Notes under the pieces: model-generated
Told to the model about the DNA's origin: nothing
Databases searched by the model: none
What the model saw: the letters and a program-made list of their open reading frames with translations, nothing else
Program-made: the position numbers and the translations under genes
Source: an uncultured Candidatus Saccharibacteria bacterium
GTDB lineage: Bacteria; Patescibacteriota; Saccharimonadia; CAILAD01; CAZGYV01
Length of the DNA stretch: 64,000 bases
Direction of reading: 5' to 3'
NCBI GenBank assembly: GCA_964530725.1
Contig: CAZGYV010000001.1
Span: 15,829-79,828, forward strand
Part shown: positions 3,901 to 49,490 of the stretch, piece by piece
How positions within the stretch are numbered: position 1 is the first letter of the stretch
Layout of the letters: each line of letters opens with the position of its first letter

Positions 3901-4044
3901 TGGTGAACGTGGTTGAATCGAATTGGAACGATATCCTTATGGAGTTCAGGCGACTCCATCACCTTATCAGGGGATTATCTCTGGCATAATCCATTCGCTA
4001 CGGTGATAGAACTAGTTTATGCTTGACACATAATGCTAATGCTT

Positions 4045-4071
4045 TTGTTATAGGCTTCTGAACCCTATAAT
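4045..4071 (+). promoter_or_regulatory. Putative promoter of KAP NTPase gene (TTGTTA-15-TATAAT; additional TTGACA at 4023-4028), near-leaderless
   Basis: TATAAT at 4066-4071 only 10 nt before ATG 4082; upstream TTGTTA/TTGACA -35-like hexamers. Confidence 0.3.
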
Positions 4072-4081
4072 ACAGTGTAAT

Positions 4082-7753: not shown

Positions 7754-7919
7754 ACGTGGGGTGCGGTAGGGCTCGCCAAGCGTAGCGGCACAAGTCCTGT
7801 TTAGCGGGATACTACTTTATAGCATAAGCATGCCATAAGCAAAAAACGAAAACTCCATACCTCTGCATCTGTAAATTGGCGGATTTCTAGTAGTTTTTGG
7901 CTATGACTAACTATACGTA

Positions 7920-8414
7920 TTAGTAGCTTTTAGGAATAGCCTTACAAACTTCATCAAGAAGCTCATCAGGACTCATGTTGAGGTTTTGGTTTAAGTCTTT
8001 AAACTCCATAGTTATCATCACATAGACCATAGTCTGGAAGTTATTTGGGTGTTCTAGCTTCTCTGCAACTTGGGTTGTATATGCAGTTAGTCGTAATAGT
8101 TCGTCTGGCTTTTTGAATCCAGTTCTTGCAGAGACTGTCATAAGTCGCAACTCTTCCTTACTGGCATTAGGATTCTGGCGTTTATGCATGTCATACATCT
8201 TCTTTTGCGTCTTGGCTATTGAAACAGGACTACCTGCTTTTTTGAATAGTCCACCAATCCACTTGAAGATAGCAACAACCCAAAAGAACAGACCAAACCA
8301 TACAAGGATACCCGCAAACATTGAGGGTAGTAAATGGAATATACTAGGCAGCATTAAAGCTAACCCGATAAGGAACAGTTGATAAGGCTTAATACTTTTT
8401 CTTTGCTTCGACAT
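7920..8414 (-). CDS. Small 2-TM membrane protein with cytoplasmic C-terminal domain (164 aa from Met at 8414)
   Basis: AAGGAG 6 nt upstream of ATG 8414 (MSKQRK...); track start at 8510 lacks RBS. Convergent with KAP NTPase gene. Confidence 0.45.
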   Translation of the reverse strand: MSKQRKSIKPYQLFLIGLALMLPSIFHLLPSMFAGILVWFGLFFWVVAIFKWIGGLFKKAGSPVSIAKTQKKMYDMHKRQNPNASKEELRLMTVSARTGFKKPDELLRLTAYTTQVAEKLEHPNNFQTMVYVMITMEFKDLNQNLNMSPDELLDEVCKAIPKSY

Positions 8415-8455
8415 GTTTTTCTCCTTAAAAATAAAAACGACACCACGCTTGGTGT

Positions 8456-8558
8456 CTAAACCAGTAACAGAGTTTTTAAGCCCGATTACTTCGCATGGTG
8501 CCGTTTTCAAGGCTTAAAACCACGCAAAATTACTTGCGGTACTCTATAACTGGTTTAG
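8456..8558. ncRNA. Structured intergenic element: nested inverted repeats (outer 17-bp IR 8456-8472/8542-8558, 15/17 match; inner perfect 9-bp IR 8474-8482/8511-8519)
   Basis: CTAAACCAGTAACAGAG ... CTCTATAACTGGTTTAG and TTTTAAGCC...GGCTTAAAA read directly from sequence; lies between membrane-protein gene and recombinase promoter. Confidence 0.35.
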
Positions 8559-8856
8559 ACTATTTCATTATATAACAAAAACACCCCCATGTTGCTCAAA
8601 TCACCCCTGAGCCCAAACGATATTTTGCGTTTAAAATCAAAAGTTGATGTTATGCCCATCTCGTAGATAAAAGTGCGTGTTTTGACGGTTTATTTACAGT
8701 ATGTTGGTCGATTATTTTGCTTCCAAAATTAAAAGATGAGCATAAGTCCACCTCACAAATATGAGCGAAAAAAATGAAGCAAGTTCAGCGGTATTTCCGA
8801 CCACTATGGAGTTTTTGGTTATCCACAGACACTTGTCAAAATAAACATAAAAGGTA

Positions 8857-8885
8857 TTGACTTTTTGGGCAAAGTTTGATATAAT
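8857..8885 (+). promoter_or_regulatory. Consensus sigma70-type promoter TTGACT-17 nt-TATAAT directed toward small ORF and serine recombinase
   Basis: TTGACT 8857-8862, 17-nt spacer, TATAAT 8880-8885; ~270 nt upstream of ORF 9155. Confidence 0.5.
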
Positions 8886-9154
8886 ACCAACAGTTAATGA
8901 CGTGGTACACATGTTAAATCTCTTAGCTAAATCATACACAGAACCGACACGGCGTGGTGTTTAGCTAGTTATTTGATAGTCCTATAGTCACTACTCTTGT
9001 TGGAAGCAATAAAGAGAGAGCATCAGAGTTTCGCCTTCGTGAAAATATGCCCATTCTCCTACGTTGTCCTACTAAATAATTAGTAAGATAACAGGCTGAT
9101 TTAGTACGCCCTCGGACGGGTGTTTTTTATATCTGCCAAAGAATAAGGGTTAAC

Positions 9155-9376
9155 ATGCCACGACAAAGAACATGGAGCGGTCAGATGCTCACAATATCAG
9201 ATAAACCTATCATTACCACAGGAGAAGCTCGCAAGATACTAGGCAAGGGTTACGAAGAGCTTTCAGATGAACACCTAATGGGAGTAATTGTTTCACTTTC
9301 TAAGATAGCAGACTATTTCCTGACTAGGATTAGTGTTCCAGAAAACTATAAGGTATGTGGTAAAATGGGGATATGA
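9155..9376 (+). CDS. Small hypothetical protein (73 aa) immediately upstream of, and overlapping, the recombinase (possible accessory/directionality factor - speculative)
   Basis: ATGA overlap with recombinase start (9373-9376); no recognisable motif. Confidence 0.35.
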   Translation: MPRQRTWSGQMLTISDKPIITTGEARKILGKGYEELSDEHLMGVIVSLSKIADYFLTRISVPENYKVCGKMGI

Positions 9377-10971
9377 ATACGATGGATAAAAAAGAGCCAA
9401 TCAAAGTTTATGGTTATAAGCGTGTGTCTACTGAGGAGCAAGTTGATGGGATGTCTTTACATACTCAAGAGCTTGCAATTCAAGCCTACGCAGAGCAGCA
9501 CAATCTTGAGGTGGTGCATATCTTTCATGACGATGGAATATCCGCCAAAACAGCCAAGCGCCCGCAACTTCAAGAGATGCTCGCAAAACTCACAGCCAAA
9601 GATAACGAGGTGCGTGGTGTAGTTGTTTACAATCTCAGTCGTATCTCTCGTGATTTAGAGTCATACAGTCGTGATATAGGCTATCATCTTTCGGCAAAAG
9701 GCGTTCGTCTGTACTCTACAGTTGAAAACATTGACGATACACCAGAGGGTCGTTTGATGCGTAATATTGCACTCTCTATCCACCAGTACGATAACGATAC
9801 AAAAAGTCGAACAGTTAAAGACAATATGAAACAAGTTGCTCTTGAGGGTTGGTGGCAAGGCAATATCCCCTACGGATATAGCCGTGTTAAAGTACCGATT
9901 GGCATTAAGGACAAAGACGGTAAAACTAAGGAGCGTCTCACTCTCGAACCTGATAGCAATAACGACTTGAGCGACAAGATGCGTATGATGCTAGAGCGGT
10001 TCAGTGAGGGTGATTTGAAACAGTCCGAGCTTACTGATTATGCTGAGAGTATCGGCCTATACAGCCCAAAGGGTGAACGTTTTGCACCTCAGTCAATGAA
10101 TAACATTCTAAGAAATATTACCTATGCGGGCTTTGTGTGTAATAAGATGACAGACTTTGAACCTGTAAAGGCTAAACACGTAGGTCTTATCTCGCTTGAG
10201 ACATATTTACGTAATCAGGCTGTTCTTGATGGTCGTAAGCCTGATGAGGCGATGCCTCGCTTTACTGCTAGCTACCCTCTCAAGCACTCTCTGTTATGTA
10301 TTAACTGTCATAAACCCTTAACAGGTAGTGCACCTACTGGAGGTTCTGGTAAGAGCTCACCTCGCTATCACTGCACAAGATGTACGGGTACTGGCTCAAA
10401 AGGTCTTGATAGAACGAATGAGCTATTTGAAGCATTCTTAAACGATGTTACGCCTACAGATAAGATGATTAAGCTCTTTGATGTGATTGTACGCCGTATC
10501 GCCAAAGACAAGCTCTCAAACGTGAATAAGGCTATCAGCGATGTTAGAGACGATATGACCAAGATAGACACTGATATGCAGAAAGCACTTCAGTCTATGC
10601 TCGATGGCGATATCAGTAAGCAAGAGAAAGAAGACTACCAGTCGTCATTACGTATTAAGCGACTCAACCTAGAGGACGAACTTAATAAGCTACGAGACAT
10701 ACAGAGCCTCAATGAGTCTACTATTACCTATGTTTGTAACTTTATGGACGCTCCTGCTCGTATGTGGCAAGATGCAGACGCAGAGACAAAAGTCATCTTC
10801 CAACAGATGGTTACAGAGAACGGTATTGTATTCGACCTCAAGAACGAAAAGTTTGGAACGGACGGTTTGAGTATGTTTTACAGATTGAAAGACAACAAAA
10901 AAGACCCATCAAAGGCTGATGAGTCCCTTATGGTGATCCCACGGGGAATCGAACCCCGGTTACCAGGATGA
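9373..10971 (+). CDS. Large serine recombinase (resolvase/invertase catalytic domain + recombinase domain + zinc ribbon + coiled coil)
   Basis: N-terminal YGYKRVSTEEQ (catalytic Ser), VVVYNLSRISRD, C-terminal Cys cluster CINCH...HCTRCTG, 532 aa. Last ~13 codons are antisense to tRNA-Glu 3' end. Confidence 0.85.
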   Translation: MNTMDKKEPIKVYGYKRVSTEEQVDGMSLHTQELAIQAYAEQHNLEVVHIFHDDGISAKTAKRPQLQEMLAKLTAKDNEVRGVVVYNLSRISRDLESYSRDIGYHLSAKGVRLYSTVENIDDTPEGRLMRNIALSIHQYDNDTKSRTVKDNMKQVALEGWWQGNIPYGYSRVKVPIGIKDKDGKTKERLTLEPDSNNDLSDKMRMMLERFSEGDLKQSELTDYAESIGLYSPKGERFAPQSMNNILRNITYAGFVCNKMTDFEPVKAKHVGLISLETYLRNQAVLDGRKPDEAMPRFTASYPLKHSLLCINCHKPLTGSAPTGGSGKSSPRYHCTRCTGTGSKGLDRTNELFEAFLNDVTPTDKMIKLFDVIVRRIAKDKLSNVNKAISDVRDDMTKIDTDMQKALQSMLDGDISKQEKEDYQSSLRIKRLNLEDELNKLRDIQSLNESTITYVCNFMDAPARMWQDADAETKVIFQQMVTENGIVFDLKNEKFGTDGLSMFYRLKDNKKDPSKADESLMVIPRGIEPRLPG

Positions 10972-11005
10972 GAACCTGGCGTCCTAACCGCTAGACGATG
11001 GGACC
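10931..11005 (-). tRNA. tRNA-Glu (anticodon CUC)
   Basis: GGTCCCATCGTCTAGCGGTTAGGACGCCAGGTTCTCATCCTGGTAACCGGGGTTCGATTCCCCGTGGGATCACCA: 7-bp acceptor, anticodon loop TTCTCAT, T-loop TTCGATT, encoded CCA. Confidence 0.85.
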
Positions 11006-19355: not shown

Positions 19356-19685
19356 TTACAGAATGCCAGTTGGCTCTATTTCCAGCCAAGTGCCGCCTTC
19401 TTTGCGAAAAAGCAGCACCTTACTGGTCGTCTCAGTTGGGTCGTAAATATTTTCAATTCGCTGGGCGCCGCCACTGCGATGGTAATGGGTTTTTTTGTCG
19501 GCAACCCGTGGCCTAGTAACGCGTTCAAACTTATATTCCGTGCCGCTGCGCTCAAAAACTACGCAAGTCACGGTCTCTTCTAGTTCGTGAGCGTCAGACA
19601 AGGCGTGTTTATCAACTTTGTGTGATAGAATACCGTATTTTTGATCAATGACGTCAAGCAGCTCTTCCCAGGCGCGGTCGCTCAT
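19356..19685 (-). CDS. Hypothetical protein (109 aa), start overlaps stop of upstream gene (ATGA)
   Basis: Coupled to 19682..22225; no recognisable motif. Confidence 0.45.
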   Translation of the reverse strand: MSDRAWEELLDVIDQKYGILSHKVDKHALSDAHELEETVTCVVFERSGTEYKFERVTRPRVADKKTHYHRSGGAQRIENIYDPTETTSKVLLFRKEGGTWLEIEPTGIL

Positions 19686-22216
19686 AAGCTCGTGGCGATC
19701 TTGATTATTTGGTCTTGAGTTAGGCCGTGCTGATTGCCCTCTAAGCGGTACCAGTTGCCATTATTAATCCAGCTAGCTTGATTGTTGCCATACATGTAAA
19801 TTGTAAGCCCTTGGGCCTGCAGAGCTAAATACTTACTGGATTTTGGCGTAACGTAGTTTTCGGCCAGAGCTTGGGAGTCCCAGTCTGTCTTGGTGGTTAC
19901 GACGTCAATTTTACGCTTGTTGTTGTCGCCTTTAAGGCTGTAGCTAACGAGCCCAGGCGAGGTTTTGATATTGCTACCTAGCTGCCAGCCGCTTGGAATA
20001 TAGCCTGGCATACTGGCATTGATACCTGCTTTGCCGGCTGCCACTTTAAACGCCAGATTAGGGTAATTTACTTGCCAGACATAGACGCCGACCAAAACTA
20101 GCCCGACGACGCTGAGCAACGCGCTGCTGGCTGTAAAGCTGTGGCCGATTTTAGCTGGCGACGTTTTGGATTTTTCGGCCGCGCGCTCATGCACTAGCTT
20201 GAGGGCTTCTTCTTCGGTCAGCGGCTTATTTTCGAAATCAACTTCTTCTTTGGGTGGCTCGACTACCGGGTAGTTAATTTGATGGCTTGGCTTGTAGGCC
20301 GCGCCAGGAGTAATGCCATCGGGTGAAGTTGGCAGTACGAATGGTGTTGAAGCCTTGGGCGCGTTGCTTGCCTGGTTCGCCGGAGCTGGTTGTTCGACAG
20401 GCTTAGCTGGAATAATGTCTAGTGATCGCAAACCGCCCGATGGACCTGATACAGGCATTGGCTGTGGACTTGGCTTTGGCTGGGCGGGCTTGAGCGCAAT
20501 TGATTCTTGAGGCTTGCCTGGCTCTGCTTGCGATTGAGGTTTTTGGTTGATAGTGTCAACCGAGCCTGTGCCAGGCTTACTGACTACCTTAGTGGATTCA
20601 AGCTGTTTAAACTCTTCGTCGCTAAATACTGGCTCATCGTCAACATCAAGCGATGCTATTTCACTGCCAATATTCTCATGTGATTCCTTGGCTTGGGTAT
20701 CAGCTGCTGTCGGACTGGGTGCGGTAGCAGCATCGAGCGCGTTGATCTTTGCTGGCTCTAATTCTTTGGTATCCTTAACGCTAGCTTGACTCGGCGAAAC
20801 ATTTTGCGCGCCCGTGATATCGGACTTGGGTTGTACTTGGGATCCAGATTGTGTTGGCGTAGTTTGCTTTGAGCTTACCGGCTTGGCCGTGCTAGTTTCG
20901 ATTATTTTCGCTAAGTCATCAAGAGCTTCCTTGGCACTTTGGGCTGCAGGCAAGCTAACTGGTTTAGTGGTGGCTACAGGCGAAGAAGCTGCAGGCATTG
21001 GCATTGGGTTGTCCGTAGGTTTAGGTGCTGTTTGTGGTCGCGAATCAATCTTAATCGGCTCGGCGGACTGAATGGGGGTGGAGCTAGCTAAGTCACTAAA
21101 GGTAGTCGACGCCGGGCCATTGTTTTTAGTTGGTACTGTTTTTGTTGCCGGGCTAGCTAGTGGTGGCGAGGAGGTTACTTCGGTTTTTGGTGTGTCACTC
21201 GCTTTCGTTTCAATAGCTTGGGCTTGCGGAGCCGTGGTGCGAAATTTATTGACGAGCTCTGATTGAGGGACGGCGGCAGCTTTTTCTAGGCGCTGTTGGC
21301 GGGAGGGCACTGTAATTTGAAAATCTCGCCGCTCCAAATGTTTAGCTTGTTCTGGTGGCTGGCTAATGTTGACTGTGCCGCTGGCTACTGGTTTAGAGTT
21401 CGGTTCGATTGACTTTTTGCCACTGGCAACCTCTTCGACGACTCGTGAGATGCGCTCGCTCGGAATTGGCTTGACTGCTTCTATCACAGCACTTTCTATT
21501 AGAGCACGGTCATCAATGGTGTTAGGGGATTTTTTAGCCGGCTCTTTTGCCACACTTTCCTGGGTATCGCCGGAAACGTCACTTCGTCGCGTTTCAATAT
21601 CTCCTATTGGTGAATGCGGAATTATTGGCACCAAGGGCTTATTATCATCCGGCACTGGCAGGTTACTGGCTAGCTCTCGCGTAGTTTTCTGAGCTAGTTT
21701 CTCGGCGATTTCTTTGACTATGCGATCGTTTTTCTTGTGGCTGGCAATGACAGCTTGATCAATATTTTTAAACGTCTCAAGTTTATCATTGAGGTTGTCA
21801 ATTTTTTGCATGTTACTAGTTTGCGTGGCTTTAGCTGGAGTAGCTATGCCGGACTTTGGCTGGACAATAGGCTTACTTATCGGTGTGACGGGCTTAGGTG
21901 GAATCGGAGCGGCTTGATGATGGACGGGGTTAACCGGCGGCTTTACGGGCGGCGGAGGCGGCGGTACCGTGGCTTTTTGCGGCAACGGAATCTCTACTTT
22001 GGACGGATTGGGTTGAGTAACTAGAGGTATATTGTGTGTCGGCTGTTGCGGCACTTTTGCCACAGGTAAAACTGATGAGACCGGCTTAGCCTCTTCTTTG
22101 ACCTCTGGACTTGGTTTTATACCACCTGGCTGCCAGGGGGTGCCGCAATTAGCACAAAAAACCTTGCCAGCAATTACAATCCTATCTTTTTCTTCGCAGT
22201 CTGGACATTGAACCAT
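19682..22216 (-). CDS. Zinc-ribbon membrane protein with ~600-aa Pro/Thr/Ser-rich disordered region and C-terminal extracytoplasmic domain
   Basis: N-terminal CPDCEE...CANCG zinc ribbon, long PxP low-complexity, TM helix LLSVVGLVLVGVYVW near C-terminus followed by ~150-aa globular domain; first ATG at 22216 (track GTG at 22225). Confidence 0.55.
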   Translation of the reverse strand: MVQCPDCEEKDRIVIAGKVFCANCGTPWQPGGIKPSPEVKEEAKPVSSVLPVAKVPQQPTHNIPLVTQPNPSKVEIPLPQKATVPPPPPPVKPPVNPVHHQAAPIPPKPVTPISKPIVQPKSGIATPAKATQTSNMQKIDNLNDKLETFKNIDQAVIASHKKNDRIVKEIAEKLAQKTTRELASNLPVPDDNKPLVPIIPHSPIGDIETRRSDVSGDTQESVAKEPAKKSPNTIDDRALIESAVIEAVKPIPSERISRVVEEVASGKKSIEPNSKPVASGTVNISQPPEQAKHLERRDFQITVPSRQQRLEKAAAVPQSELVNKFRTTAPQAQAIETKASDTPKTEVTSSPPLASPATKTVPTKNNGPASTTFSDLASSTPIQSAEPIKIDSRPQTAPKPTDNPMPMPAASSPVATTKPVSLPAAQSAKEALDDLAKIIETSTAKPVSSKQTTPTQSGSQVQPKSDITGAQNVSPSQASVKDTKELEPAKINALDAATAPSPTAADTQAKESHENIGSEIASLDVDDEPVFSDEEFKQLESTKVVSKPGTGSVDTINQKPQSQAEPGKPQESIALKPAQPKPSPQPMPVSGPSGGLRSLDIIPAKPVEQPAPANQASNAPKASTPFVLPTSPDGITPGAAYKPSHQINYPVVEPPKEEVDFENKPLTEEEALKLVHERAAEKSKTSPAKIGHSFTASSALLSVVGLVLVGVYVWQVNYPNLAFKVAAGKAGINASMPGYIPSGWQLGSNIKTSPGLVSYSLKGDNNKRKIDVVTTKTDWDSQALAENYVTPKSSKYLALQAQGLTIYMYGNNQASWINNGNWYRLEGNQHGLTQDQIIKIATSL

Positions 22217-22274
22217 ATGAAACACGCTTATGTATGCACTTTTATTATAGAAGGAAAAGTTGTAAGCGTAAAGA

Positions 22275-38000: not shown

Positions 38001-39218
38001 TTATATTTTAGATTTGATCACTTCTAGAGCCCGATCGAGCTGCGGGTCACGACCGGCATTGTAGTCTTGGTCCGATTGTTTGACCTCGACATCTGGCTTA
38101 ACACCTTCTTTTGAGATATTAACGCCTTTTGGTGTATACCAGTGCGCGACAGTTATCTTGACAGCCGTACCGCCCGACAAGTCGAAAAGTTGTTGCACGC
38201 TGCCTTTACCAAAAGTCTTCTCACCTACCAATGTAGCCCGATTGTTATCACGCAGAGCGCCAGCCATAATCTCCGACGCCGAAGCACTGCCGCCGTTAAT
38301 TAGCACCACGACGGGTAAATTAGTCATCGAGCCACCTGGAATAGCTCGGTGGACGATACTATTTTCTTTGCGCGAACGTTGCTCAACGACCACGCCGTCA
38401 CTTAAGAATTCACTGGTGACATCAACTGCGCCCTGCAGATAACCACCTGGATTATTGCGTAAATCTACCACCACACCGCGGGCGCCCTGACGCATTAGCT
38501 CTCTCGCCGCCCCATCAACTCGCTCGACCGTGTCGTCGCCAAAGCGGCTGATTTTAATTAAGCCGATATTACCAGTCTTTAGCTCGGATTTCACACTCTC
38601 GACGGTGATCTCATCGCGAGTTATTTTATATTCCTTGGGGTCGCTACTACCTCGAATAATCGTTAGTTTTACCTCGGTGCCTTTTTCGCCGCGAATTTTT
38701 GACACCGCCACGTCGAGCGACATGGCCGAGGTTTCTTCGTCATTGACAGCCACGATAATATCACCGGCCTGAACGCCAGCTTTGGCCGCCGGCGCATTGT
38801 CAATCGGTGCGATCACAGTTAATTTATCGTTTTTAATGCCAACTTCGATACCAACACCCTTGAAGTTGCCCTTAAGATCGCTGGAGAGCTCTTGGGATTG
38901 CTCGGCCGACAAGAAAGCTGTGTAGGGGTCGCCCAATGATGCTACCATGCCCGCGATCGCGCCTTCGACCTGTTTGTCACTACTAATATCACCGTCAAAA
39001 TGCTTGTGCAGCAGCCCGTTGACCTTCCAGTACTCACTCATGTCATGCTTACTTTTAGTTGAATTAGTGCCAAGAGCACCAATGCTAATATTGGGGTTTA
39101 ACTTGCTAAACAAAAATCCCAACGCGAAAGTTACTATTCCAACGACAATAATTTGCGCTAAATGATTATTTTTCGGCCGCCCGTGATTGGGCGTCTGATT
39201 TGTGGCATTATCCTTCAT
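38001..39218 (-). CDS. ctpA: Carboxyl-terminal processing protease (S41 family, PDZ-containing)
   Basis: PDZ region + GGSASASEIMAGAL (Ser box) and TFGKGSVQ (Lys box). Confidence 0.8.
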   Translation of the reverse strand: MKDNATNQTPNHGRPKNNHLAQIIVVGIVTFALGFLFSKLNPNISIGALGTNSTKSKHDMSEYWKVNGLLHKHFDGDISSDKQVEGAIAGMVASLGDPYTAFLSAEQSQELSSDLKGNFKGVGIEVGIKNDKLTVIAPIDNAPAAKAGVQAGDIIVAVNDEETSAMSLDVAVSKIRGEKGTEVKLTIIRGSSDPKEYKITRDEITVESVKSELKTGNIGLIKISRFGDDTVERVDGAARELMRQGARGVVVDLRNNPGGYLQGAVDVTSEFLSDGVVVEQRSRKENSIVHRAIPGGSMTNLPVVVLINGGSASASEIMAGALRDNNRATLVGEKTFGKGSVQQLFDLSGGTAVKITVAHWYTPKGVNISKEGVKPDVEVKQSDQDYNAGRDPQLDRALEVIKSKI

Positions 39219-43399: not shown

Positions 43400-44620
43400 T
43401 TATTTTTTCCAGCTGCGCAGGGCGTCTTTGAGGGCTTTTTTACCTTTCAGGTAAGTGTAGCCAACGTAGCTTAGACCGCTCATGCCCAGTACTCCGGCAC
43501 CGGCACTCTCAATACCAGTTTGTGGTATTTCGCCGCCGCCAGCAATCACTGGTGCGCTTGGCGTTGGGGTGATTACTTCACCAGGTGTTACAGGTGTTGG
43601 GGTTGGTGTAGGTGTAATCGATGGCGTGACTGTTGGAGTTGGAGTCGGGGTAATAGTTGGGGTTGGCGTAGGAGTCACGCTTGGAGTGGTGGTAGGAGTT
43701 GGTGTAGGCGTAACTTTCGGCTTTTTAACCTTGACGATCGCCTTGTCACAACCCTTTTGGTTGTCATTGGCAGTGAAGCAAGCTTCGTTGTCAATGTAGG
43801 TGCCACCTGGTGTGTTACCATCAACGTTGACAGTAATAGTAACGTCTTTGATTTGATTTGGAGCCACATCAGGGTAGTTGAAGTTAATTACCCGAGTGGG
43901 GTCGCCATTGGCGAGCTTCACTTCGGCTGGCAGCGGGTCGGTCATCTTAATACCGGTTAGCGCGCCAGTACCAACGTTGGTCATATAGACAACGTACTTC
44001 AGCTTGTCGCCAGCTTCGACTTCCAAGGCAGTTTCCTTGGTGTCGGCAGCGTAAGCGGTGTTGGCATCTTTACTGAGGTTGATAACACGCTTATAAATCT
44101 GGCCAAAAGGCTTGTTCATCGGCTTGATGGGGTTACCGCAAGACTTGATGATCGCCCAGTGGAAAGTACCACCTTCCATGCTAACAAAAGCTGGCAAGGA
44201 ATTGGAGTTAAACGATACGGCTGGCGGACGCATCCACAGCGAACCGTCTTTGGTCGAGTTCTGCAAGAACTCACGGCCGGAGCTAAAAACTCCAGTACCT
44301 ACTTGAGCACCGTTCACCCAGACAGAGCCGTCTTTGCGAACTTCGCCCTCGACGGTGTTCGGACTCATAATGCCGGCTTCGGTGATACCGCGGCCTTCAT
44401 TGTAATAAATCTGCTTGAGGTTGGCCGATGAATTCGCACCATCGCCACCATTAATTTTACTGATTAATTCTTGCTTATCAGCCGCGCCACATTTCATCAC
44501 AGCATTGCTGTCACAGTCGCGGGCAGCGTCAACTTTAACTAGTGGCAAGACTATCGAAGCCACCAGTAGCAAAGCGCTAACAATACCAATCAATTTGGTA
44601 CTAATTTTGCCTTTCTTCAT
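43400..44620 (-). CDS. Sortase-substrate-like surface protein: signal peptide, globular domain, (Thr-Pro)n stalk, C-terminal IPQTG-TM-KKALKDALRSWKK sorting signal
   Basis: C-terminal IPQTG + hydrophobic helix + basic tail = LPXTG-type cell-wall sorting signal; TPTPTPT repeats. Confidence 0.7.
   Translation of the reverse strand: MKKGKISTKLIGIVSALLLVASIVLPLVKVDAARDCDSNAVMKCGAADKQELISKINGGDGANSSANLKQIYYNEGRGITEAGIMSPNTVEGEVRKDGSVWVNGAQVGTGVFSSGREFLQNSTKDGSLWMRPPAVSFNSNSLPAFVSMEGGTFHWAIIKSCGNPIKPMNKPFGQIYKRVINLSKDANTAYAADTKETALEVEAGDKLKYVVYMTNVGTGALTGIKMTDPLPAEVKLANGDPTRVINFNYPDVAPNQIKDVTITVNVDGNTPGGTYIDNEACFTANDNQKGCDKAIVKVKKPKVTPTPTPTTTPSVTPTPTPTITPTPTPTVTPSITPTPTPTPVTPGEVITPTPSAPVIAGGGEIPQTGIESAGAGVLGMSGLSYVGYTYLKGKKALKDALRSWKK
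43590..43715. repeat. Imperfect tandem DNA repeats (GGTGTTGGGGTTGGTGTAGG-like) encoding the (Thr-Pro)n stalk
   Basis: Visible periodic GGNGTNGG units; coding low-complexity, not CRISPR. Confidence 0.6.
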
Positions 44621-44791: not shown

Positions 44792-44840
44792 GGGGACCCC
44801 CTTCTAGTCGTTTTTTGATAAACGCTAGAAGAGGGTCCCC
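44792..44840. terminator. GC-rich 18-bp-stem hairpin without U-tract at left boundary of high-GC block (actinobacterial-style terminator or boundary element)
   Basis: GGGGACCCCCTTCTAGTCG-TTTTTTGATAAA-CGCTAGAAGAGGGTCCCC. Confidence 0.4.
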
Positions 44841-44865
44841 TTGAACTTGTCAGAGGTGGTCTTGG

Positions 44866-45780
44866 CTAGTCGCCAAAACCGCCAATGTTTGTCGAGCCGT
44901 CGATGCCACCGGCCCCATCAGGGGCTTGGCCGGTTTGGCCGTGCCCCGCGTCGGGGTTGCCGGTGGCCTTGGTGCCACCGCCGGCGATTGAGCCACCACC
45001 ACCATTGCCACCACTAGGTGGCGGACTGGTTGGCGGAGGACTCGTCGGGGGCGGTGGGTTGTTCGGTGGAGGCGGTTGAGCGATTGGCGGCTGAGCTACC
45101 GTACCGCCGCCGCCAGCGTTGGCTGGAGGTACCGGTGAGGCTGGGCCAGCCTGAGTGGCTGGATTGCCTTGCGGTGCTGATGCAGGGTCTGCCTGCGGCT
45201 CGCCGGCCGGAGCCGAACCAGTTGCCTGACTCTGTGCCGCGTCCGCCGCCGGCTCGCCTACTACTGACGTAGCGGCTTCCGAGCTGACAGCCGATGGCGC
45301 ATCCTGGACAACAGCTGCCGGAGTCTCGGTGGGAGCCGGTGTGACCACCGTATCTCCTCTCAAGCTCCAGTTAACCACCGCACCAGCTACCAGCAGCGCG
45401 ACTGCCAGCAAACTGACACCCACGCGGCGACGGAACTGAGACCAGTCCCGCCGATCAGTCTCGGGCACCGTCTTGGGACGGGCCTTGACTGGTCGCACCA
45501 GCGTCAGGGGCTTGACCTTGGTCGCTGGCTCTGGGATTTCCGGTAGCAGCGAGACAACGTCTACGATCACGACATCCGAAAGGATGTGCGTGGTCGTCGC
45601 TGGCGGGCTAGCTGACTCGATGACAGCCAGCGCCATACTGGTCGTCGGCGAAGCTTCCTCTTCCTTGGTCGAACCGTAGAGCACCGGCAGCGCTGTGCTG
45701 TCGGGCTTGAGGAACGATTGCAGATCGAAGACCTGCGCTTCCGCTTCCTCGAACTTCGTGGCCGTCAGTGTCTCTGCCAC
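44866..45780 (-). CDS. High-GC-block protein A: N-terminal cytoplasmic region, single TM, Pro/Ala/Gly-rich tail ending GSTNIGGFGD
   Basis: GTG 45780 with AAGGAGG 5 nt upstream, overlapping TAG stop of upstream ORF (TAGTG). TM helix VGVSLLAVALLVAGAVV; PPPTSPPPTSPPPSGGNGGGG. Confidence 0.5.
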   Translation of the reverse strand: MAETLTATKFEEAEAQVFDLQSFLKPDSTALPVLYGSTKEEEASPTTSMALAVIESASPPATTTHILSDVVIVDVVSLLPEIPEPATKVKPLTLVRPVKARPKTVPETDRRDWSQFRRRVGVSLLAVALLVAGAVVNWSLRGDTVVTPAPTETPAAVVQDAPSAVSSEAATSVVGEPAADAAQSQATGSAPAGEPQADPASAPQGNPATQAGPASPVPPANAGGGGTVAQPPIAQPPPPNNPPPPTSPPPTSPPPSGGNGGGGSIAGGGTKATGNPDAGHGQTGQAPDGAGGIDGSTNIGGFGD

Positions 45781-46082
45781 TATCCCCTCCTTCTCGTTTG
45801 GCGGCAACCAGACTTCTCGGCCCGACGCATGCTGCGCGCGAGTTTGGGATCTCGCATCAACATTCGCCGGGTGTCGGCCATGGCTTCACTCTCCCAGTGC
45901 TCTTGGCGCAACACGTCAAAGTGCTGGGTGATCTTGGCCTGACGTTCCTTGGCGGCCTTGGCGCGCTTGCTCTTTCGACGAGCCTTTTTCAGCCAGCGAG
46001 CGGCGTGAACCGCTACGACATAGCTGAAGATTAGCCCGAGTAATACGGCAGCAATCCAGAATTGAGCCGAGTTTTCACTCAT
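45780..46082 (-). CDS. High-GC-block small membrane protein (101 aa) with Arg/Lys-rich C-terminal tail
   Basis: ATG 46082 one nt after TGA of upstream ORF (TGAGATG); TM FWIAAVLLGLIFSYVVAV; tail KKARRKSKRAKAAKERQAK. Confidence 0.45.
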   Translation of the reverse strand: MSENSAQFWIAAVLLGLIFSYVVAVHAARWLKKARRKSKRAKAAKERQAKITQHFDVLRQEHWESEAMADTRRMLMRDPKLARSMRRAEKSGCRQTRRRG

Positions 46083-46083
46083 C

Positions 46084-46593
46084 TCAACCCCCAAAGCTGC
46101 CGACGTTGGTCGATGTCCCCATCTGGCCATTGCCAGATGGGCCCTGGCGAGCGCCGCCGTAATTGGCGGTCTCGCCGTGTTGGGCGTCCGAGACGTGCTG
46201 CGAGCCCTTGCTCGAAGCGCCACCCGACGAACTACCACCAGGTCCTTGCTTGGGAGTGGACGACGATTTGCCACCTCCTCCACCTGGGGCCGGTGATTCA
46301 CCACTACCGTCTCCACCACTGCCGCCACCTGGTGGTGGCTCGGCTTCTGGAGGGGGTGCCGGCGGCAGTGTGGTCGGTGACACTGTTGTTGTAGGCGGCG
46401 TGGTCGTTGTTGTCGGAGCTACCGTTGTGGTGGTGGCTTCGGTCGATGACGGCGGTGCCGCGTCGCTTGCCGACATGGGGCGGACTGCCACCATCGCCAG
46501 CACCGTAATCCCAACGATCGCGGTCGTAACGATGAGAGCGATATTACGTACCCTCATCGGGTCAATGAAGCGCAAGGGTTGCAAGCGAGCCAT
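46084..46593 (-). CDS. High-GC-block protein B: short N-term, single TM, Thr/Pro-rich then Gly-rich tail ending GTSTNVGSFGG (paralogue of protein A C-terminus)
   Basis: TM IALIVTTAIVGITVLAMVAV; TTTTVAPTTTTTPPTTTVSPTT; C-terminal motif shared with 44866..45780. Confidence 0.5.
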   Translation of the reverse strand: MARLQPLRFIDPMRVRNIALIVTTAIVGITVLAMVAVRPMSASDAAPPSSTEATTTTVAPTTTTTPPTTTVSPTTLPPAPPPEAEPPPGGGSGGDGSGESPAPGGGGGKSSSTPKQGPGGSSSGGASSKGSQHVSDAQHGETANYGGARQGPSGNGQMGTSTNVGSFGG

Positions 46594-46779
46594 TGCTTGC
46601 CCTTTCTACTAGACAATATGTTGACAAGTTTCACTGCTTTTAAGGGATTTAAAAGCAGATTCAAGCCGTCAAGCAGTATTATACTCCTATCAAAGAATGA
46701 TTGGGTGACCCCTCCCATCTCAGGTAGTGAGACGAGAGGGGTCACAGTTGGACATGGACATGGGACAAGTTAGGTTTGC

Positions 46780-47400
46780 CTAGGCAACCTGGCTGCTGGG
46801 TGGAGCGAGCTGCTCCGTCGGCCGGTCGACCTCCTGGTCAGATGAGTCGGCTACCCAGCGGCGAAGACGGATAACCGTCTTCTGTAGCTGGGCGGCTAAC
46901 GCCAAACCGAGCAGCCCACCGGCCATCACCACCCCGAGGTAGATCCCCCAGGGAACGGCAAAGTCACGTTCAGTGGCAGCCTCGATGCTGTGCTCGAAGC
47001 TTCCAGCCAGCAGCCAGAACCCAAGCCAGGAGAGAACCGCACCGCCAATGATGAACAGTGCCATCAAGGCACCGCCAACACCTTCGCGGCCAATTTCGGC
47101 CTCACCGGTGATGCGGCTGAGTGCGATCTGCTCGATCCAGTTTCGCAACTGCACCAAGTAGTCGCTGACGCCGTGGATCTGTTGGTTGACCCCGGCAAGC
47201 CCCTTGGTGGTGTTCTCGTGCTGCCACATGAAGGCATCCCGGGTGGCCGGATCGGCTACCGCGTCGAACGGACTGGCTTGGGCCTGTGGCTGATTGGTGT
47301 CGTCGGCAGCACTTCCGCCACCTTCAGCACCATTCCAGCCGGTCCTCGCCTGCTCCTGGCCGTCGAGGACAGAGTCAACAAAGTCTGGTGTTATCTGCAT
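46780..47400 (-). CDS. High-GC-block membrane protein (206 aa; soluble N-terminal half, 3 predicted TM helices in C-terminal half)
   Basis: AAGGAGG 6 nt upstream of ATG 47400; helices ALMALFIIGGAVLSWLGFWLL, WGIYLGVVMAGGLLGLALAA. Confidence 0.5.
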   Translation of the reverse strand: MQITPDFVDSVLDGQEQARTGWNGAEGGGSAADDTNQPQAQASPFDAVADPATRDAFMWQHENTTKGLAGVNQQIHGVSDYLVQLRNWIEQIALSRITGEAEIGREGVGGALMALFIIGGAVLSWLGFWLLAGSFEHSIEAATERDFAVPWGIYLGVVMAGGLLGLALAAQLQKTVIRLRRWVADSSDQEVDRPTEQLAPPSSQVA

Positions 47401-47414
47401 GATTTCCTCCTTAA

Positions 47415-47981
47415 CTACATGCCCAGATCGGCAGCGACCCTTTTGATCGTCACTCGAGCATCCTCAGGCGACAAGCCGACGTTGGCCAAGCAGGCGTAAG
47501 CCAGCCTGACTGCTCGACTGTTGGCCTCATCCTCCGCACCATCGCGAAAACGTCGAATGGCCGCCTTGGCGGCAGACTCCTCGTTTTTCGCTATCTCGCG
47601 CTGCCGCTCGCTAATGTCGAGCAAGCGCTCAAGCTCAGCAATCCGAGCTTGCAGGAGACTCAACTCCTGCTTCATGTCACCGAGCAGACGACTGTCTTGC
47701 TCGAGAAGCTTGCGTTGCTTCTCAACGTGACCCTCCAGCTTTTTGGTGTAGTCGCGCCATTTGGTATCGATGGGCTGACGCTCCTCAAGGGGGTTGTCAG
47801 GCACAGGCTGCGGAGGCTCAGGCGGAGTCACCACCTCAATCTGGTCGGTGATCTCCTCTGACTCCACTGGCACCTCTACCGGCGGAACGTATTCAGCCGA
47901 CTGCTCTTCAGCAGCTCGGGCTTCGGCCTCAGCGGCTGCTTCAGCTGCGATGGCGTCCAACTCGTCCATGTCAAAATTCAT
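47415..47981 (-). CDS. High-GC-block acidic coiled-coil protein (189 aa from ATG 47981)
   Basis: GGGAG 5 nt upstream of ATG 47981 (MNFDMDELD...); Glu/Ala-rich N-term, heptad region KQRKLLEQDSRLLGDMKQELSLLQARIAELERLLD. Confidence 0.45.
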   Translation of the reverse strand: MNFDMDELDAIAAEAAAEAEARAAEEQSAEYVPPVEVPVESEEITDQIEVVTPPEPPQPVPDNPLEERQPIDTKWRDYTKKLEGHVEKQRKLLEQDSRLLGDMKQELSLLQARIAELERLLDISERQREIAKNEESAAKAAIRRFRDGAEDEANSRAVRLAYACLANVGLSPEDARVTIKRVAADLGM

Positions 47982-48137
47982 TTTCGCTCCCAATGTAAGG
48001 AACTTCTCTTGAAGCTTTTGCCTCAGAGTCAGCCAAGGATTTTGAAAAATCCTCAAGCTGATTACTAACGCAAAATGCTAGGGCAAGGGATCGGGCACTC
48101 GATATGAGCACCCGATCCCTCACTTACCCCTCCAACT

Positions 48138-49118
48138 CTACTCGCGCACAGTCTGCCGAATGGCCGTTTTCACCAGTCTGATGGCGGCGGTTGGCGTCAC
48201 TCGCCACTTTTCGACAAACACCGGATAGTGCTCGTCGATGAGACAACGGTAACCATCTTGTCGCTCCTGGGCGTGGCGCTCGGGGTCGTCATGCAGCTTG
48301 TGCAGATCGGCCCAGAGACCCTCAGTCGCGCGGGCAACATCACGACACTCGTCGTGCATTAACGCCCATGACAGCGGCTGCGGGCCAACCTTTCGCTTGC
48401 CACGGCGCTGGCTGCGCTTGGAGTCAGGATTAGGCAAGGTCGCCCGCCCGTCGATCAGAGCATTGAGCCTACCACGATCACGTGGCGGCATAGCCTGACC
48501 GCAGAGTGCGCAGTTTGGCACAGCCAGCCAGAGCATCGAAAGATACTTCTCCAGTCGCTCCTGAGTCCGCCGCGAAATGCGGTAAAACCGAAGCTCCGGA
48601 TTGGTTGCTCGTTGCTCAGGTGTCAGCAGTGCCCGCTCCTGATACCACTCGAATGAAACGCGAATCTCTTCGCGCGGATCGAGCAGATCGCGGTAGGCGA
48701 AGTTTCGCCCCCGCTGCTCGACTTCCTCTGGTATCCAGCCCGGGCCAGCCGTCTGTAGCACACTGATAGCCTCGGATAGCTTATCGACCAGCCTGTGGTC
48801 GACATCGCGTGGCTCGGGCGCTACTTGGAAGCGCCAACGCCACTCAGCCTCACGGCTGGTGAACGTCGGCTGCGGTCGAACGATCTCGGTCGAGGTGCTC
48901 GTCACGACCTTTCCCTCCTGATCATTCGCGATCTCGGCTTGGTTTTCCAGTGCCTGCCGCAGCAACGCTGCCTCGCTTGATATCAGCATCGAGTTGTCAC
49001 GCAGATCGCGCTTGACACCAGCCGACGGAGCGAGCTTGAGCAGCTCCTTCGGCGTAATGCCGAGGTCATCGGCTACCTTGTCGAGTCGCCGACGGACCGC
49101 AACTTGAGGATTACCCAT
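48138..49118 (-). CDS. High-GC-block protein (326 aa) with N-terminal HeH/IF2-N/Rho-N-like helix-extension-helix motif and internal CxxC
   Basis: AAGGAG 8 nt upstream of ATG 49118; RLDKVADDLGITPKELLKLA motif; CALCGQ pair; otherwise no known family. Confidence 0.5.
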   Translation of the reverse strand: MGNPQVAVRRRLDKVADDLGITPKELLKLAPSAGVKRDLRDNSMLISSEAALLRQALENQAEIANDQEGKVVTSTSTEIVRPQPTFTSREAEWRWRFQVAPEPRDVDHRLVDKLSEAISVLQTAGPGWIPEEVEQRGRNFAYRDLLDPREEIRVSFEWYQERALLTPEQRATNPELRFYRISRRTQERLEKYLSMLWLAVPNCALCGQAMPPRDRGRLNALIDGRATLPNPDSKRSQRRGKRKVGPQPLSWALMHDECRDVARATEGLWADLHKLHDDPERHAQERQDGYRCLIDEHYPVFVEKWRVTPTAAIRLVKTAIRQTVRE

Positions 49119-49490
49119 TTATTTTCTCCTTATCTGGAGTTGATTCACCTGGGGGCCGGTGACGCCAAAAATTTAACGCCACAACGGGCACCGCAAGATG
49201 CCTCTATTCCATCGGAGAAAATCTGAAGAAAATCGGAAATCCGACTTGATTAAAGGGCAGAATGCTGCCGTCAATTAAGAAATAACAGCACGATTCCACC
49301 CTTCACTCTCGTCAAAATATTCCTGAGTGATATTTGAGTAGTTTTGGAGTATATTAATTTGCTAGCGTTTGTCACTCAATAACTTAGGTGAAAACGCCGA
49401 TGTTTTAATCTACTATATTTATCAATATTTGTCAAGTGTTTCTAGGGTTGTTATGTTTAGCTAAATCAGCAGCAGTGCTGCTCGCCAAAA

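What the first reader, a model, noticed from the sequence alone, without database searches (positions are those of the whole stretch)
44866..46593. Paralogous single-pass proteins sharing an extreme C-terminal G[ST]STN[IV]G[GS]FG[DG] motif
ORF 46593->46084 ends ...QMGTSTNVGSFGG* and ORF 45780->44866 ends ...GIDGSTNIGGFGD*. Both share the same architecture: cytoplasmic N-terminus, one TM helix, Thr/Pro- or Pro/Ala-rich spacer, Gly-rich segment, and a conserved terminal decapeptide with no following TM segment. This does not match LPXTG, PEP-CTERM, GlyGly-CTERM or T7SS YxxxD/E signals. It could be a previously undescribed C-terminal sorting or recognition tag, or a ligand-binding tip. The two genes flank a 101-aa TM protein with a poly-basic tail and are translationally coupled (TGAgATG and TAGTG overlaps).
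Basis: seen in the sequence. Interest (0 to 1): 0.65.

Follow-up and report, generated by a model that had tools for sequence, protein, structure and literature searches.

The report
Lineage-restricted membrane proteins sharing a tail
Two neighbouring genes encode real, membrane-anchored, mostly disordered proteins that share a conserved glycine-rich C-terminal module of about 45 residues, but the module was found only in one narrow bacterial lineage and has none of the hallmarks of a protein-sorting signal.

Summary
The ORFs, their endings, the single TM helices and the TGAgATG / TAGTG junctions are as described. Small corrections: the in-register shared terminus is STN[IV]G[GS]FG[GD], which is 9 residues, and the middle protein is 100 aa.

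- **Similarity is real.** It exceeds composition-matched chance (p about 3e-4 to 5e-5) and extends about 45 residues upstream (DAxHG…PxGxG…).
- **The frames are coding.** In a syntenic relative (about 75% nt identity), 22 consecutive A-tail codons carry only synonymous changes. The tails are the slowest-evolving part of both proteins.
- **The terminus is not fixed.** In that relative it reads …GSIGGN* and …SSTVGGFGD*.
- **No sorting-signal features.** No TM helix or basic cluster follows the motif, and no cognate enzyme was identified nearby (a sortase lies about 15 kb away, an S41 Ctp protease about 6 kb away).
- **No family match or wider carriers.** No curated family matches, and no other carriers were found, though those searches had low sensitivity.

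The genes form a hairpin-delimited operon inside a 4.3-kb GC-rich cluster of six orphan genes. The cluster appears vertically inherited and lies next to a strain-variable cassette.

Best reading: N-in/C-out stalk proteins displaying a constrained C-terminal interaction module. A general sorting tag is not supported. Interest is modest.

The parts
46084..46593 (-). Gene A, 169 aa. Short basic N-terminus (4 Arg), one TM helix (res 18-38), Thr/Pro stalk (about 46-88), Gly/Ser-rich segment (about 89-125), conserved C-terminal module (126-169).
   Evidence: Coding frame confirmed by the substitution pattern against L005.
46087..46218 (-). A tail module (res 126-169): ...SSKGSQHVSDAQHGETANYGGARQGPSGNGQMGTSTNVGSFGG.
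   Evidence: 38 of 44 residues are identical to the L005 orthologue. 22 consecutive codons carry only synonymous changes. dN is 0.079, against 0.33 in the rest of A.
45780..46082 (-). Small 100-aa membrane protein. N-terminal TM helix (res 10-28), then a polybasic tail predicted to be cytoplasmic. Start lies 1 nt after A's stop; its stop overlaps B's GTG.
   Evidence: Only the first roughly 30 residues are conserved in L005, where the ORF stops after 33 aa. Weak, uninformative PHROG 30768 hit at 1.9e-4.
44866..45780 (-). Gene B, 304 aa. About 118-aa N-terminal region predicted to be cytoplasmic, one TM helix (res 120-138), Ala/Pro-rich stalk, poly-Pro and Gly-rich segment, conserved C-terminal module.
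44869..45030 (-). B tail module (res 251-304): ...PPPSGGNGGGGSIAGGGTKATGNPDAGHGQTGQAPDGAGGIDGSTNIGGFGD.
   Evidence: Aligns with the A tail. dN is 0.174, the lowest within B.
46705..46745 (-). Strong RNA hairpin after gene 3 and upstream of A; the likely terminator that makes A-small-B a separate transcription unit.
   Evidence: I1; -36.3 kcal/mol, z = -4.8. A similar hairpin is seen at the same place in L005.
44792..44840 (-). Strong RNA hairpin directly after B's stop; the likely operon terminator.
   Evidence: -38.2 kcal/mol, z = -6.8.
48138..49118 (-). Cluster gene 1, 326 aa, Arg-rich soluble protein with no family match. First gene of the GC-rich cluster, followed by its own hairpin (48086-48120).
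47415..47981 (-). Cluster gene 2, 188 aa, acidic protein that looks coiled-coil. Its C-terminal two-thirds lie in the strain-variable cassette.
46780..47400 (-). Cluster gene 3, 206 aa, two TM helices (112-130 and 152-170). Lies entirely within the strain-variable cassette.

Best explanation
**What A and B are**
- A and B are genuine protein-coding genes. They are co-transcribed with a tiny membrane protein as one hairpin-delimited operon.
- The operon lies inside a 4.3-kb GC-rich cluster of six orphan genes, seen so far in only three closely related lineages.
- Both are bitopic membrane proteins. The positive-inside rule predicts N-in/C-out (inferred).
- Outside the membrane, each has a long low-complexity stalk (Thr/Pro in A, Ala/Pro in B), a flexible Gly-rich segment, and a module of about 45 residues.
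- The module reads [ST]K-x5-DAxHG ... PxGxG ... S[ST][NT][VI]G[GS][FI]G[GD], ending 0-1 residue before the stop.

**What is shown**
- The module is the only demonstrably homologous part of A and B.
- It is also the part of each protein under the strongest purifying selection.

**Most likely mechanism (inferred)**
- The N-terminal helix anchors the protein in the membrane.
- The stalk spans the Gram-positive-type wall.
- The C-terminal module is displayed at the tip as a short interaction peptide.
- Its partner could be the other paralogue, a wall component, or another cell.
- It is not a cleavable sorting signal.
For: **Real genes in the stated frames**
- dN/dS is 0.19-0.29, with third-position-dominated substitutions.

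**Tails homologous beyond composition**
-.

**Tails most constrained**
- dN is 0.079 for the A tail and 0.174 for the B tail, against 0.33-0.68 elsewhere in the same proteins.

**Position of the motif**
- The relaxed motif occurs only in A/B orthologues.
- It always lies 0-1 residue from the stop, in six-frame translations of the window and all loci.

**Topology**
- Arg clusters lie on the N-terminal side of each TM helix, and there is a single TM helix.

**Operon structure**
- Hairpins sit before A and after B.
- Start and stop codons are coupled.

**Envelope context**
- The adjacent DUF11 protein uses a PT-repeat stalk plus an IPQTG sortase signal.
- The window also encodes a sortase, a TagA/WecG-family enzyme and FtsEX with a CHAP-domain hydrolase. 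These indicate a walled monoderm in which PT stalks span the wall.

**No tripartite sorting architecture**
- Compared with the definition in PMC3237569.
Against: - Nothing was tested experimentally. Topology, surface exposure and any binding partner are inferred.
- The strict C-terminal position, kept across about 25% nucleotide divergence, would also fit recognition of a free C-terminus by an enzyme.
- Only three lineages are available, so the conservation statistics rest on one orthologous comparison.
- Structure prediction of the neighbouring proteins failed (pLDDT 48 and 51), so the cluster gives no functional context.
- A could be a secreted protein if its N-terminal helix is cleaved as a signal peptide. 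However, -3/-1 are M/A here and T/T in the orthologue, which are poor signal-peptidase sites.
Confidence: 0.45

Rival explanations
1. The tail is a new C-terminal sorting, processing or attachment signal. A dedicated protease or transpeptidase, or a PDZ-type C-terminal processing protease, would recognise it.
For: - The motif sits 0-1 residue from the stop in all four known proteins.
- It is under purifying selection.
- Two otherwise dissimilar proteins share only this region, which is how sorting domains usually present (PMC3237569).
- An S41 Ctp-type protease with PDZ domains lies about 6 kb away (38001-39218).
Against: - No TM helix or basic cluster follows the motif.
- Only two carriers are known per genome segment.
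- No candidate enzyme lies in the cluster, and none of the six proteins hits any family.
- The terminal residues vary (FGG, IGGN, FGD) and end in G, N or D. From general knowledge, these are poor PDZ/Ctp ligands.
- Conservation spans about 45 residues rather than one short cleavage motif.
- No further carriers in 1.84 billion representative proteins, GTDB representative genomes, IMG/VR, or phages and plasmids. These searches have low sensitivity.
Confidence: 0.12
2. The cluster is the remnant of a mobile or phage-derived module, for example a lysis, superinfection-exclusion or spread cassette. A, B and the small TM protein would be its membrane effectors.
For: - GC is about 60% against about 48% in the flanks, and GC3 is 0.61-0.72 against 0.51-0.58.
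- All six genes are orphans.
- The small TM protein gives weak holin-like and PHROG hits (PF07332 E = 0.045, phrog_30768 E = 1.9e-4).
- A highly diverged allelic cassette lies next door.
Against: - There is no integrase, no flanking repeats and no adjacent tRNA.
- The cluster sits at the same locus (murD | cluster | DUF11-prfB) in a relative with about 75% nt identity. Its divergence there (68-72%) is similar to the flanks, which indicates vertical inheritance.
- No hits in phage, plasmid or IMG/VR collections.
- No endolysin or other phage gene is present.
Confidence: 0.13
3. The shared ending is a by-product of Gly/Ser/Thr-rich low-complexity sequence and has no specific function.
For: - Both proteins are strongly biased (G, P, T, S, A).
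- The only outside hit of the tail profile is a repetitive low-complexity SecA extension.
Against: - Composition-preserving shuffles rarely reach the observed score.
- The tails are the slowest-evolving part of each protein, while the truly low-complexity stalks diverge and carry indels.
Confidence: 0.05
4. A and/or B are precursors of a released Gly-rich peptide, bacteriocin-like or RiPP-like, cut from a membrane-tethered pro-form.
For: The Gly/Ser/Thr/Asn-rich C-terminus superficially recalls Gly-rich microcins (from memory, not tested).
Against: - No modification, export or immunity genes are recognisable within the cluster or its flanks.
- The precursors are long, with an N-terminal TM anchor.
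- There is no double-glycine leader.
Confidence: 0.04

Closest known systems
Tripartite C-terminal sorting signals (LPXTG/sortase, PEP-CTERM/exosortase, GlyGly-CTERM/rhombosortase, MYXO-CTERM/myxosortase)
   Same: A short homology region at the extreme C-terminus, shared by proteins that are otherwise dissimilar.
   Different: - Those signals are motif + TM helix + basic cluster.
- They occur in many proteins per genome and are co-distributed with a sorting enzyme (PMC3237569).
- Here no TM helix or basic cluster follows, only two carriers are known, and no enzyme partner was found.
- The neighbouring DUF11 protein (43400-44620) carries a textbook IPQTG + TM + KK signal for contrast.
Sortase-anchored wall proteins with Pro/Thr-repeat wall-spanning stalks (for example the adjacent DUF11 protein)
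   Same: Pro/Thr-rich low-complexity spacer of a length suited to crossing a Gram-positive-type wall; predicted surface display.
   Different: - Polarity is inverted. A and B are anchored by an N-terminal TM helix, and the functional end is the free C-terminus.
- There is no folded passenger domain, only a module of about 45 residues.
Actinobacterial-type bitopic proteins with a cytoplasmic N-domain, one TM helix and a Pro/Ala-rich ectodomain, such as membrane anti-sigma factors (comparison from memory)
   Same: B has the same overall layout: about 118 cytoplasmic residues, a TM helix, and a Pro/Ala-rich extracytoplasmic region.
   Different: - No anti-sigma (zf-HC2/RskA-type) domain was detected.
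- No sigma-factor gene is adjacent.
- Those families are not known to carry a conserved C-terminal tip.
Substrates of C-terminal processing (Ctp/Tsp, S41) proteases, recognised through a PDZ domain
   Same: Recognition would depend on a free, conserved C-terminus, and an S41/PDZ protease is encoded about 6 kb away.
   Different: - The tails end in G, D or N and are not fixed.
- The protease sits in a conserved ftsEX-CHAP-ctp housekeeping block, not in the cluster.
- No link was tested.

Membership tests
LPXTG / sortase sorting signal | LPXTG-like motif near the C-terminus | tested here: not met
   The last 60 residues of A and B contain no LPXTG-like motif. The neighbouring protein has IPQTG.
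LPXTG / PEP-CTERM / GlyGly-CTERM / MYXO-CTERM (tripartite signals) | Hydrophobic TM helix after the motif, followed by a basic cluster at the terminus (PMC3237569) | tested here: not met
   Hydropathy scan finds only the N-proximal TM helix in A and B. The proteins end ...GSFGG and ...GGFGD.
Tripartite sorting signals | Many carriers per genome, co-distributed with a dedicated sorting enzyme | tested here: inconclusive
   - Two carriers in the 64-kb window.
- A sortase is present, but its motif is absent from A and B.
- The whole genome and phylogenetic profiling were not available.
T9SS C-terminal domain (Por secretion tail) | A C-terminal domain detectable by Pfam/TIGRFAM models | tested here: not met
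   No Pfam or NCBIfam hit for A or B, even at E <= 10 or 0.1. The conserved region is about 45 Gly-rich residues.
RTX / type I secretion substrates | Tandem GGxGxDxUx nonapeptide repeats upstream of an uncleaved C-terminal signal | tested here: not met
   No HemolysinCabind hit. The tail cannot be put in register with the nonapeptide on reading.
Phage holins (for the small TM protein) | Significant match to a holin family, with an endolysin nearby | tested here: not met
   - PF07332 scores E = 0.045, 14 bits against a cutoff of 28.
- PHROG 30768 is of unknown function.
- No endolysin lies in the cluster.
- The polybasic tail is absent in the L005 orthologue.
Integrated mobile element / prophage remnant | Integrase or recombinase, flanking direct repeats or a tRNA target, and relatives in phage or plasmid collections | tested here: not met
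   The locus is syntenic in a relative at 75% nt identity.
Anti-phage defence systems (PADLOC) | Significant match to a defence-system protein model | tested here: not met
   Only coiled-coil-type noise at E >= 0.009.

The most novel reading that the evidence does not exclude
The roughly 45-residue Gly-rich C-terminal module is a lineage-specific recognition tag. It would be read by a so-far unrecognised processing or attachment machinery, or used as a tethered ligand in cell-cell contact by this walled, possibly epibiotic bacterium. The adjacent hypervariable g2-g3 cassette would form the polymorphic specificity part of the same system.
Probability: 0.1. Interest if true: 0.7.

Novelty: new variant of a known kind. 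Interest (0 to 1): 0.3.

Why it matters
- If the module is an exposed interaction tip, it would be a minimal way for a small-genome, walled bacterium to display a conserved peptide beyond its wall without a folded domain or sortase. That is potentially relevant to attachment or envelope organisation in an uncultured lineage.
- As it stands, this is a narrowly distributed orphan family, and it does not open a general sorting pathway.
- The neighbouring strain-variable cassette, with alleles about 55% identical in protein inside otherwise 100% identical DNA, may be the more informative handle on what the whole cluster does.

Tried and rejected
**Homologue searches**
- Full-length B returned only itself. 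The candidate list was saturated by low-complexity words.
- The word-indexed search with the tail alignment found nothing.
- An exhaustive hmmsearch of the 2-tail profile against 1.84 billion representatives found only B and P0009.
- P0009 is a SecA with about 8 internal repeats of RFGTSTGAGRFGDSPRERRTPDGAA. I reject it as repeat-inflated low-complexity resemblance, because the match is not terminal.
- Caveat 1: A-type proteins looked up by exact sequence are absent from that protein collection, and no A-type tail appeared among the profile hits. Protein-level negatives are therefore weak.

**DNA regex for the motif plus stop**
- It gave 0 hits in IMG/VR.
- It gave 1 hit in 185,579 GTDB representative genomes. 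That hit is an internal stretch of a Rieske-type (CxH...CPCH) protein, read through TGG.
- Caveat 2: this regex would also miss the L005 orthologues.

**Locus searches with genes 1 and 3 and with A**
- No confirmed relatives in GTDB representatives, JGI metagenomes or IMG/VR.

**tblastn against phages and plasmids**
- Gene 1, gene 3 and the A tail gave nothing; blastn of the A-B region against phages also gave nothing.

**Family libraries and PDB sequences**
- Pfam, NCBIfam, PHROGs, PADLOC and PDB sequence searches gave nothing significant.

**Structure prediction**
- AlphaFold2 gave pLDDT 48 for gene 1 (single sequence) and 51 for gene 3 (three sequences).
- Both are too poor for fold search, so none was run.

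**Other checks**
- Flanking att-like repeats: none credible.
- Sample accessions in the literature: none found.
- The organism could not be identified with the tools left.
Full report
**1. The observation**

On the minus strand, ORF A (46593->46084, 169 aa) ends ...QMGTSTNVGSFGG*. ORF B (45780->44866, GTG start 5 nt behind GAAGGAGGGG, 304 aa) ends ...GIDGSTNIGGFGD*. Between them is a 100-aa ORF (46082->45780) with an N-terminal TM helix and a polybasic tail. The junctions are TGAgATG and TAGTG.

Hydropathy scanning finds one TM segment in each protein: A res 18-36, B res 120-138, small protein res 10-28. No hydrophobic segment follows either tail.

Arg clusters precede the TM helices of A and B, which predicts N-in/C-out. 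The small protein has its basic tail after the helix, which predicts N-out/C-in. These topologies are inferences from the positive-inside rule.

Two small corrections:
- The in-register shared terminus is STN[IV]G[GS]FG[GD]. Its back-translated pattern plus a stop codon matches exactly twice in the window and never in shuffles.

**2. Is the similarity more than chance?**

Yes.
- BLASTP with compositional adjustment aligns 33 residues (DAQHGET…STNVGSFG with DAGHGQT…STNIGGFG) at E = 4e-4.
- The 45-aa tails score 67, against 36.4 +/- 5.8 for shuffles that keep composition (6 of 20000 reach it). For the 60-aa tails, 1 of 20000 reaches the observed score.
- Six in-register identities in the last nine residues are reached by 28 of 200000 shuffles.
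- The four-sequence alignment with the orthologues gives the shared core [ST]K-x5-DAxHG … PxGxG … S[ST][NT][VI]G[GS][FI]G[GD].

The homologous unit is therefore a module of about 45 residues, not a decapeptide. No similarity was detected between A and B outside it.

**3. Are the frames right?**

Yes. A syntenic locus from another lineage (L005/L006, Logan SRR29931265/4) carries orthologues of all the cluster genes. Its flanks are about 75% nt identical to the window, with MurD 73% and PrfB 75% aa identical.
- In A's last 44 codons there are 22 nt differences, 15 of them at codon position 3.
- They cause 6 aa changes in A's frame, against 10-19 in the other five frames.
- Twenty-two consecutive codons (YGGARQGPSGNGQMGTSTNVGS) carry only synonymous changes.
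- Gene-wide dN/dS is 0.19 for A and 0.29 for B.

Some assemblies' gene callers pick an overlapping 179/182-aa frame (45780..46328) instead of A, on DNA 100% identical to the window (L012). The substitution pattern shows that A is the real gene.

**4. What evolves and what is kept**

Within each protein the tail has the lowest dN. In A it is 0.079, against 0.33 for the N-terminus/TM helix and the stalk. In B it is 0.174, against 0.33-0.68 elsewhere. The stalks carry indels.

The very end is not invariant:
- The orthologue of A ends …TSTNVGSIGGN*, with F->I and one extra residue.
- The orthologue of B ends …GGSSTVGGFGD*, with TN->ST.

The small ORF keeps only its TM part in L005, where it stops after 33 aa. 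The polybasic tail is therefore dispensable or lineage-specific.

**5. Context**

A-small-B is bounded by strong hairpins at 46705-46745 (-36 kcal/mol, z = -4.8) and 44792-44840 (-38 kcal/mol, z = -6.8). Another hairpin follows gene 1. The likely units are gene 1 | genes 2-3 | A-small-B.

All six genes lie in a 4.3-kb stretch (about 44850-49150) of about 60% GC, in a genome of about 48% GC. GC3 is 0.61-0.72, against 0.51-0.58 in the flanks. None of the six proteins matches Pfam, NCBIfam, PHROGs (apart from one weak hit to a family of unknown function), PADLOC or PDB sequences.

There is no integrase, tRNA or flanking repeat. The cluster occupies the same place (secA-murD | cluster | DUF11-prfB-ftsEX) in the relative at 75% identity. 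Its divergence there is 68-72% nt, and the same elevated GC is present. It is therefore a vertically inherited, lineage-specific cluster rather than a recent insertion.

The window also encodes a sortase, a TagA/WecG-family enzyme, MreB, an MprF-like protein and FtsEX with a CHAP hydrolase. The gene next to B is a DUF11 protein with a PT-repeat stalk and an IPQTG + TM + KK signal. This organism has a Gram-positive-type wall and uses classical sortase sorting. I could not identify the taxon.

**6. Distribution of the tail**

| Search | Result |
|---|---|
| Exhaustive hmmsearch, 2-tail profile, 1.84 billion representatives | B itself, plus a SecA whose repeated internal unit RFGTSTGAGRFGD… resembles the motif; rejected as repeat-inflated low complexity |
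| DNA regex for motif + stop, IMG/VR | No hit |
| DNA regex for motif + stop, 185,579 GTDB representative genomes | One hit, an internal stretch of a Rieske-type protein |
| Locus searches with genes 1 and 3 and with A; tblastn against phages and plasmids | Nothing |
| Relaxed motif, six-frame translations of the window and all fetched loci | A/B orthologues only, always 0-1 residue from the stop |

Two caveats limit the negatives:
- A-type proteins looked up by exact sequence are missing from the big protein collection.
- My strict regex would not have matched the L005 orthologues.

These searches exclude a widespread exact motif. They do not exclude a diverged family.

**7. Mechanism**

Shown:
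- Two co-transcribed membrane proteins exist.
- They share a homologous, selectively constrained C-terminal module.
- No TM helix or basic cluster follows the module.
- No family match was found.

Inferred:
- The proteins are N-in/C-out.
- The stalks cross the wall.
- The module is displayed as an interaction tip.

I prefer this reading (0.45) over a sorting or processing tag (0.12). Known tags are tripartite, occur in many proteins per genome, and come with a cognate enzyme (PMC3237569). None of these features is seen here. Conservation is also spread over 45 residues, with a variable last position.

The other rivals are:
- a mobile or phage-derived membrane cassette (0.13);
- a meaningless low-complexity resemblance (0.05, largely refuted);
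- a released Gly-rich peptide precursor (0.04).

**8. Side finding**

Contigs from sister strains (L009, L001, L011) are 98-100% identical to the window on both sides of a cassette of about 1 kb (46800-47800). The cassette covers the C-terminal two-thirds of gene 2 and all of gene 3. Inside it, identity drops to 52-74% nt, with sharp boundaries.

| Gene 3 protein comparison | Identity |
|---|---|
| Window vs sister strain | 54.6% |
| Window vs the distant species | 57.1% |
| Sister strain vs the distant species | 42.5% |

Between the alleles, dS is about 0.7 to above 1.7 and dN/dS is about 0.2-0.6. This looks like an old allelic cassette exchanged by recombination. It hints that the cluster is under some diversity-maintaining pressure. 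Recombination-associated GC-biased gene conversion could also contribute to the GC excess, though that is speculation.

**9. Verdict**

The module is a constrained, lineage-restricted feature with no known relatives. The sorting-tag interpretation is not supported, but it cannot be strictly excluded. Interest is modest (0.3).

Noticed in passing
window 46800-47800 (gene 2 C-terminal part + gene 3), compared with L009, L001, L003, L011: Strain-variable cassette. Identity is 52-74% nt inside DNA that is 98-100% identical on both sides, with sharp boundaries. The within-species gene-3 alleles (54.6% aa) are as diverged as those between species (57.1% and 42.5%). dS between alleles is about 0.7 to above 1.7. 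This looks like an old allelic cassette swapped by recombination.
   Followed up: partly
window 44850-49150: A 4.3-kb stretch of about 60% GC in a genome of about 48% GC, holding six orphan genes. Elevated GC3 is also present in the orthologous cluster of a relative at 75% identity. There are no mobility genes or flanking repeats.
   Followed up: yes
window 4000-11005: Low-GC (about 0.40) segment. It holds a 1223-aa YobI-like P-loop NTPase (4082-7753, PF20693 at 6.9e-101) and a large serine recombinase (9373-10971) whose 3' end overlaps tRNA-Glu(ctc) at 10931-11005. Probably an integrated mobile or defence island.
   Followed up: no
window 45780-46328 (-), overlapping the 3' half of A in another frame: A 182-aa alternative ORF, the small-protein frame extended upstream. 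Some assemblies call it instead of A on identical DNA (L012, L002). The substitution pattern shows that A's frame is the selected one.
   Followed up: yes
L005 6543-6644 (orthologue of the small ORF): The small TM protein is cut to 33 aa (MSENSAQFWVAAIILGLIYGYLLLACTPPRKRR*) in the related species. The whole polybasic tail region is deleted, and B's start is no longer overlapped.
   Followed up: partly
P0009 (1210-aa SecA from the representative library), residues about 1040-1190: A SecA with a C-terminal extension of about 8 tandem repeats, RFGTSTGAGRFGDSPRERRTPDGAA. The unit resembles the B tail (PDGAGGIDGSTNIGGFGD) at 10 of 20 positions. Judged coincidental low complexity.
   Followed up: partly
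window 19682-22225 (-): An 847-aa protein with no Pfam hit. It has an N-terminal Cys-rich zinc-ribbon-like motif, about 650 residues of Pro/Ala/Ser/Lys-rich low complexity, one TM helix and a C-terminal domain of about 150 aa. It lies in a stretch of strong strand-composition skew.
   Followed up: no
protein collection behind search for homologous proteins / search of protein representatives: The A-type proteins (window/L001 and L005) looked up by exact sequence are not in the 15-billion-protein collection, although they are called genes on indexed contigs. Negative protein searches for such low-complexity proteins are therefore weak.
   Followed up: partly
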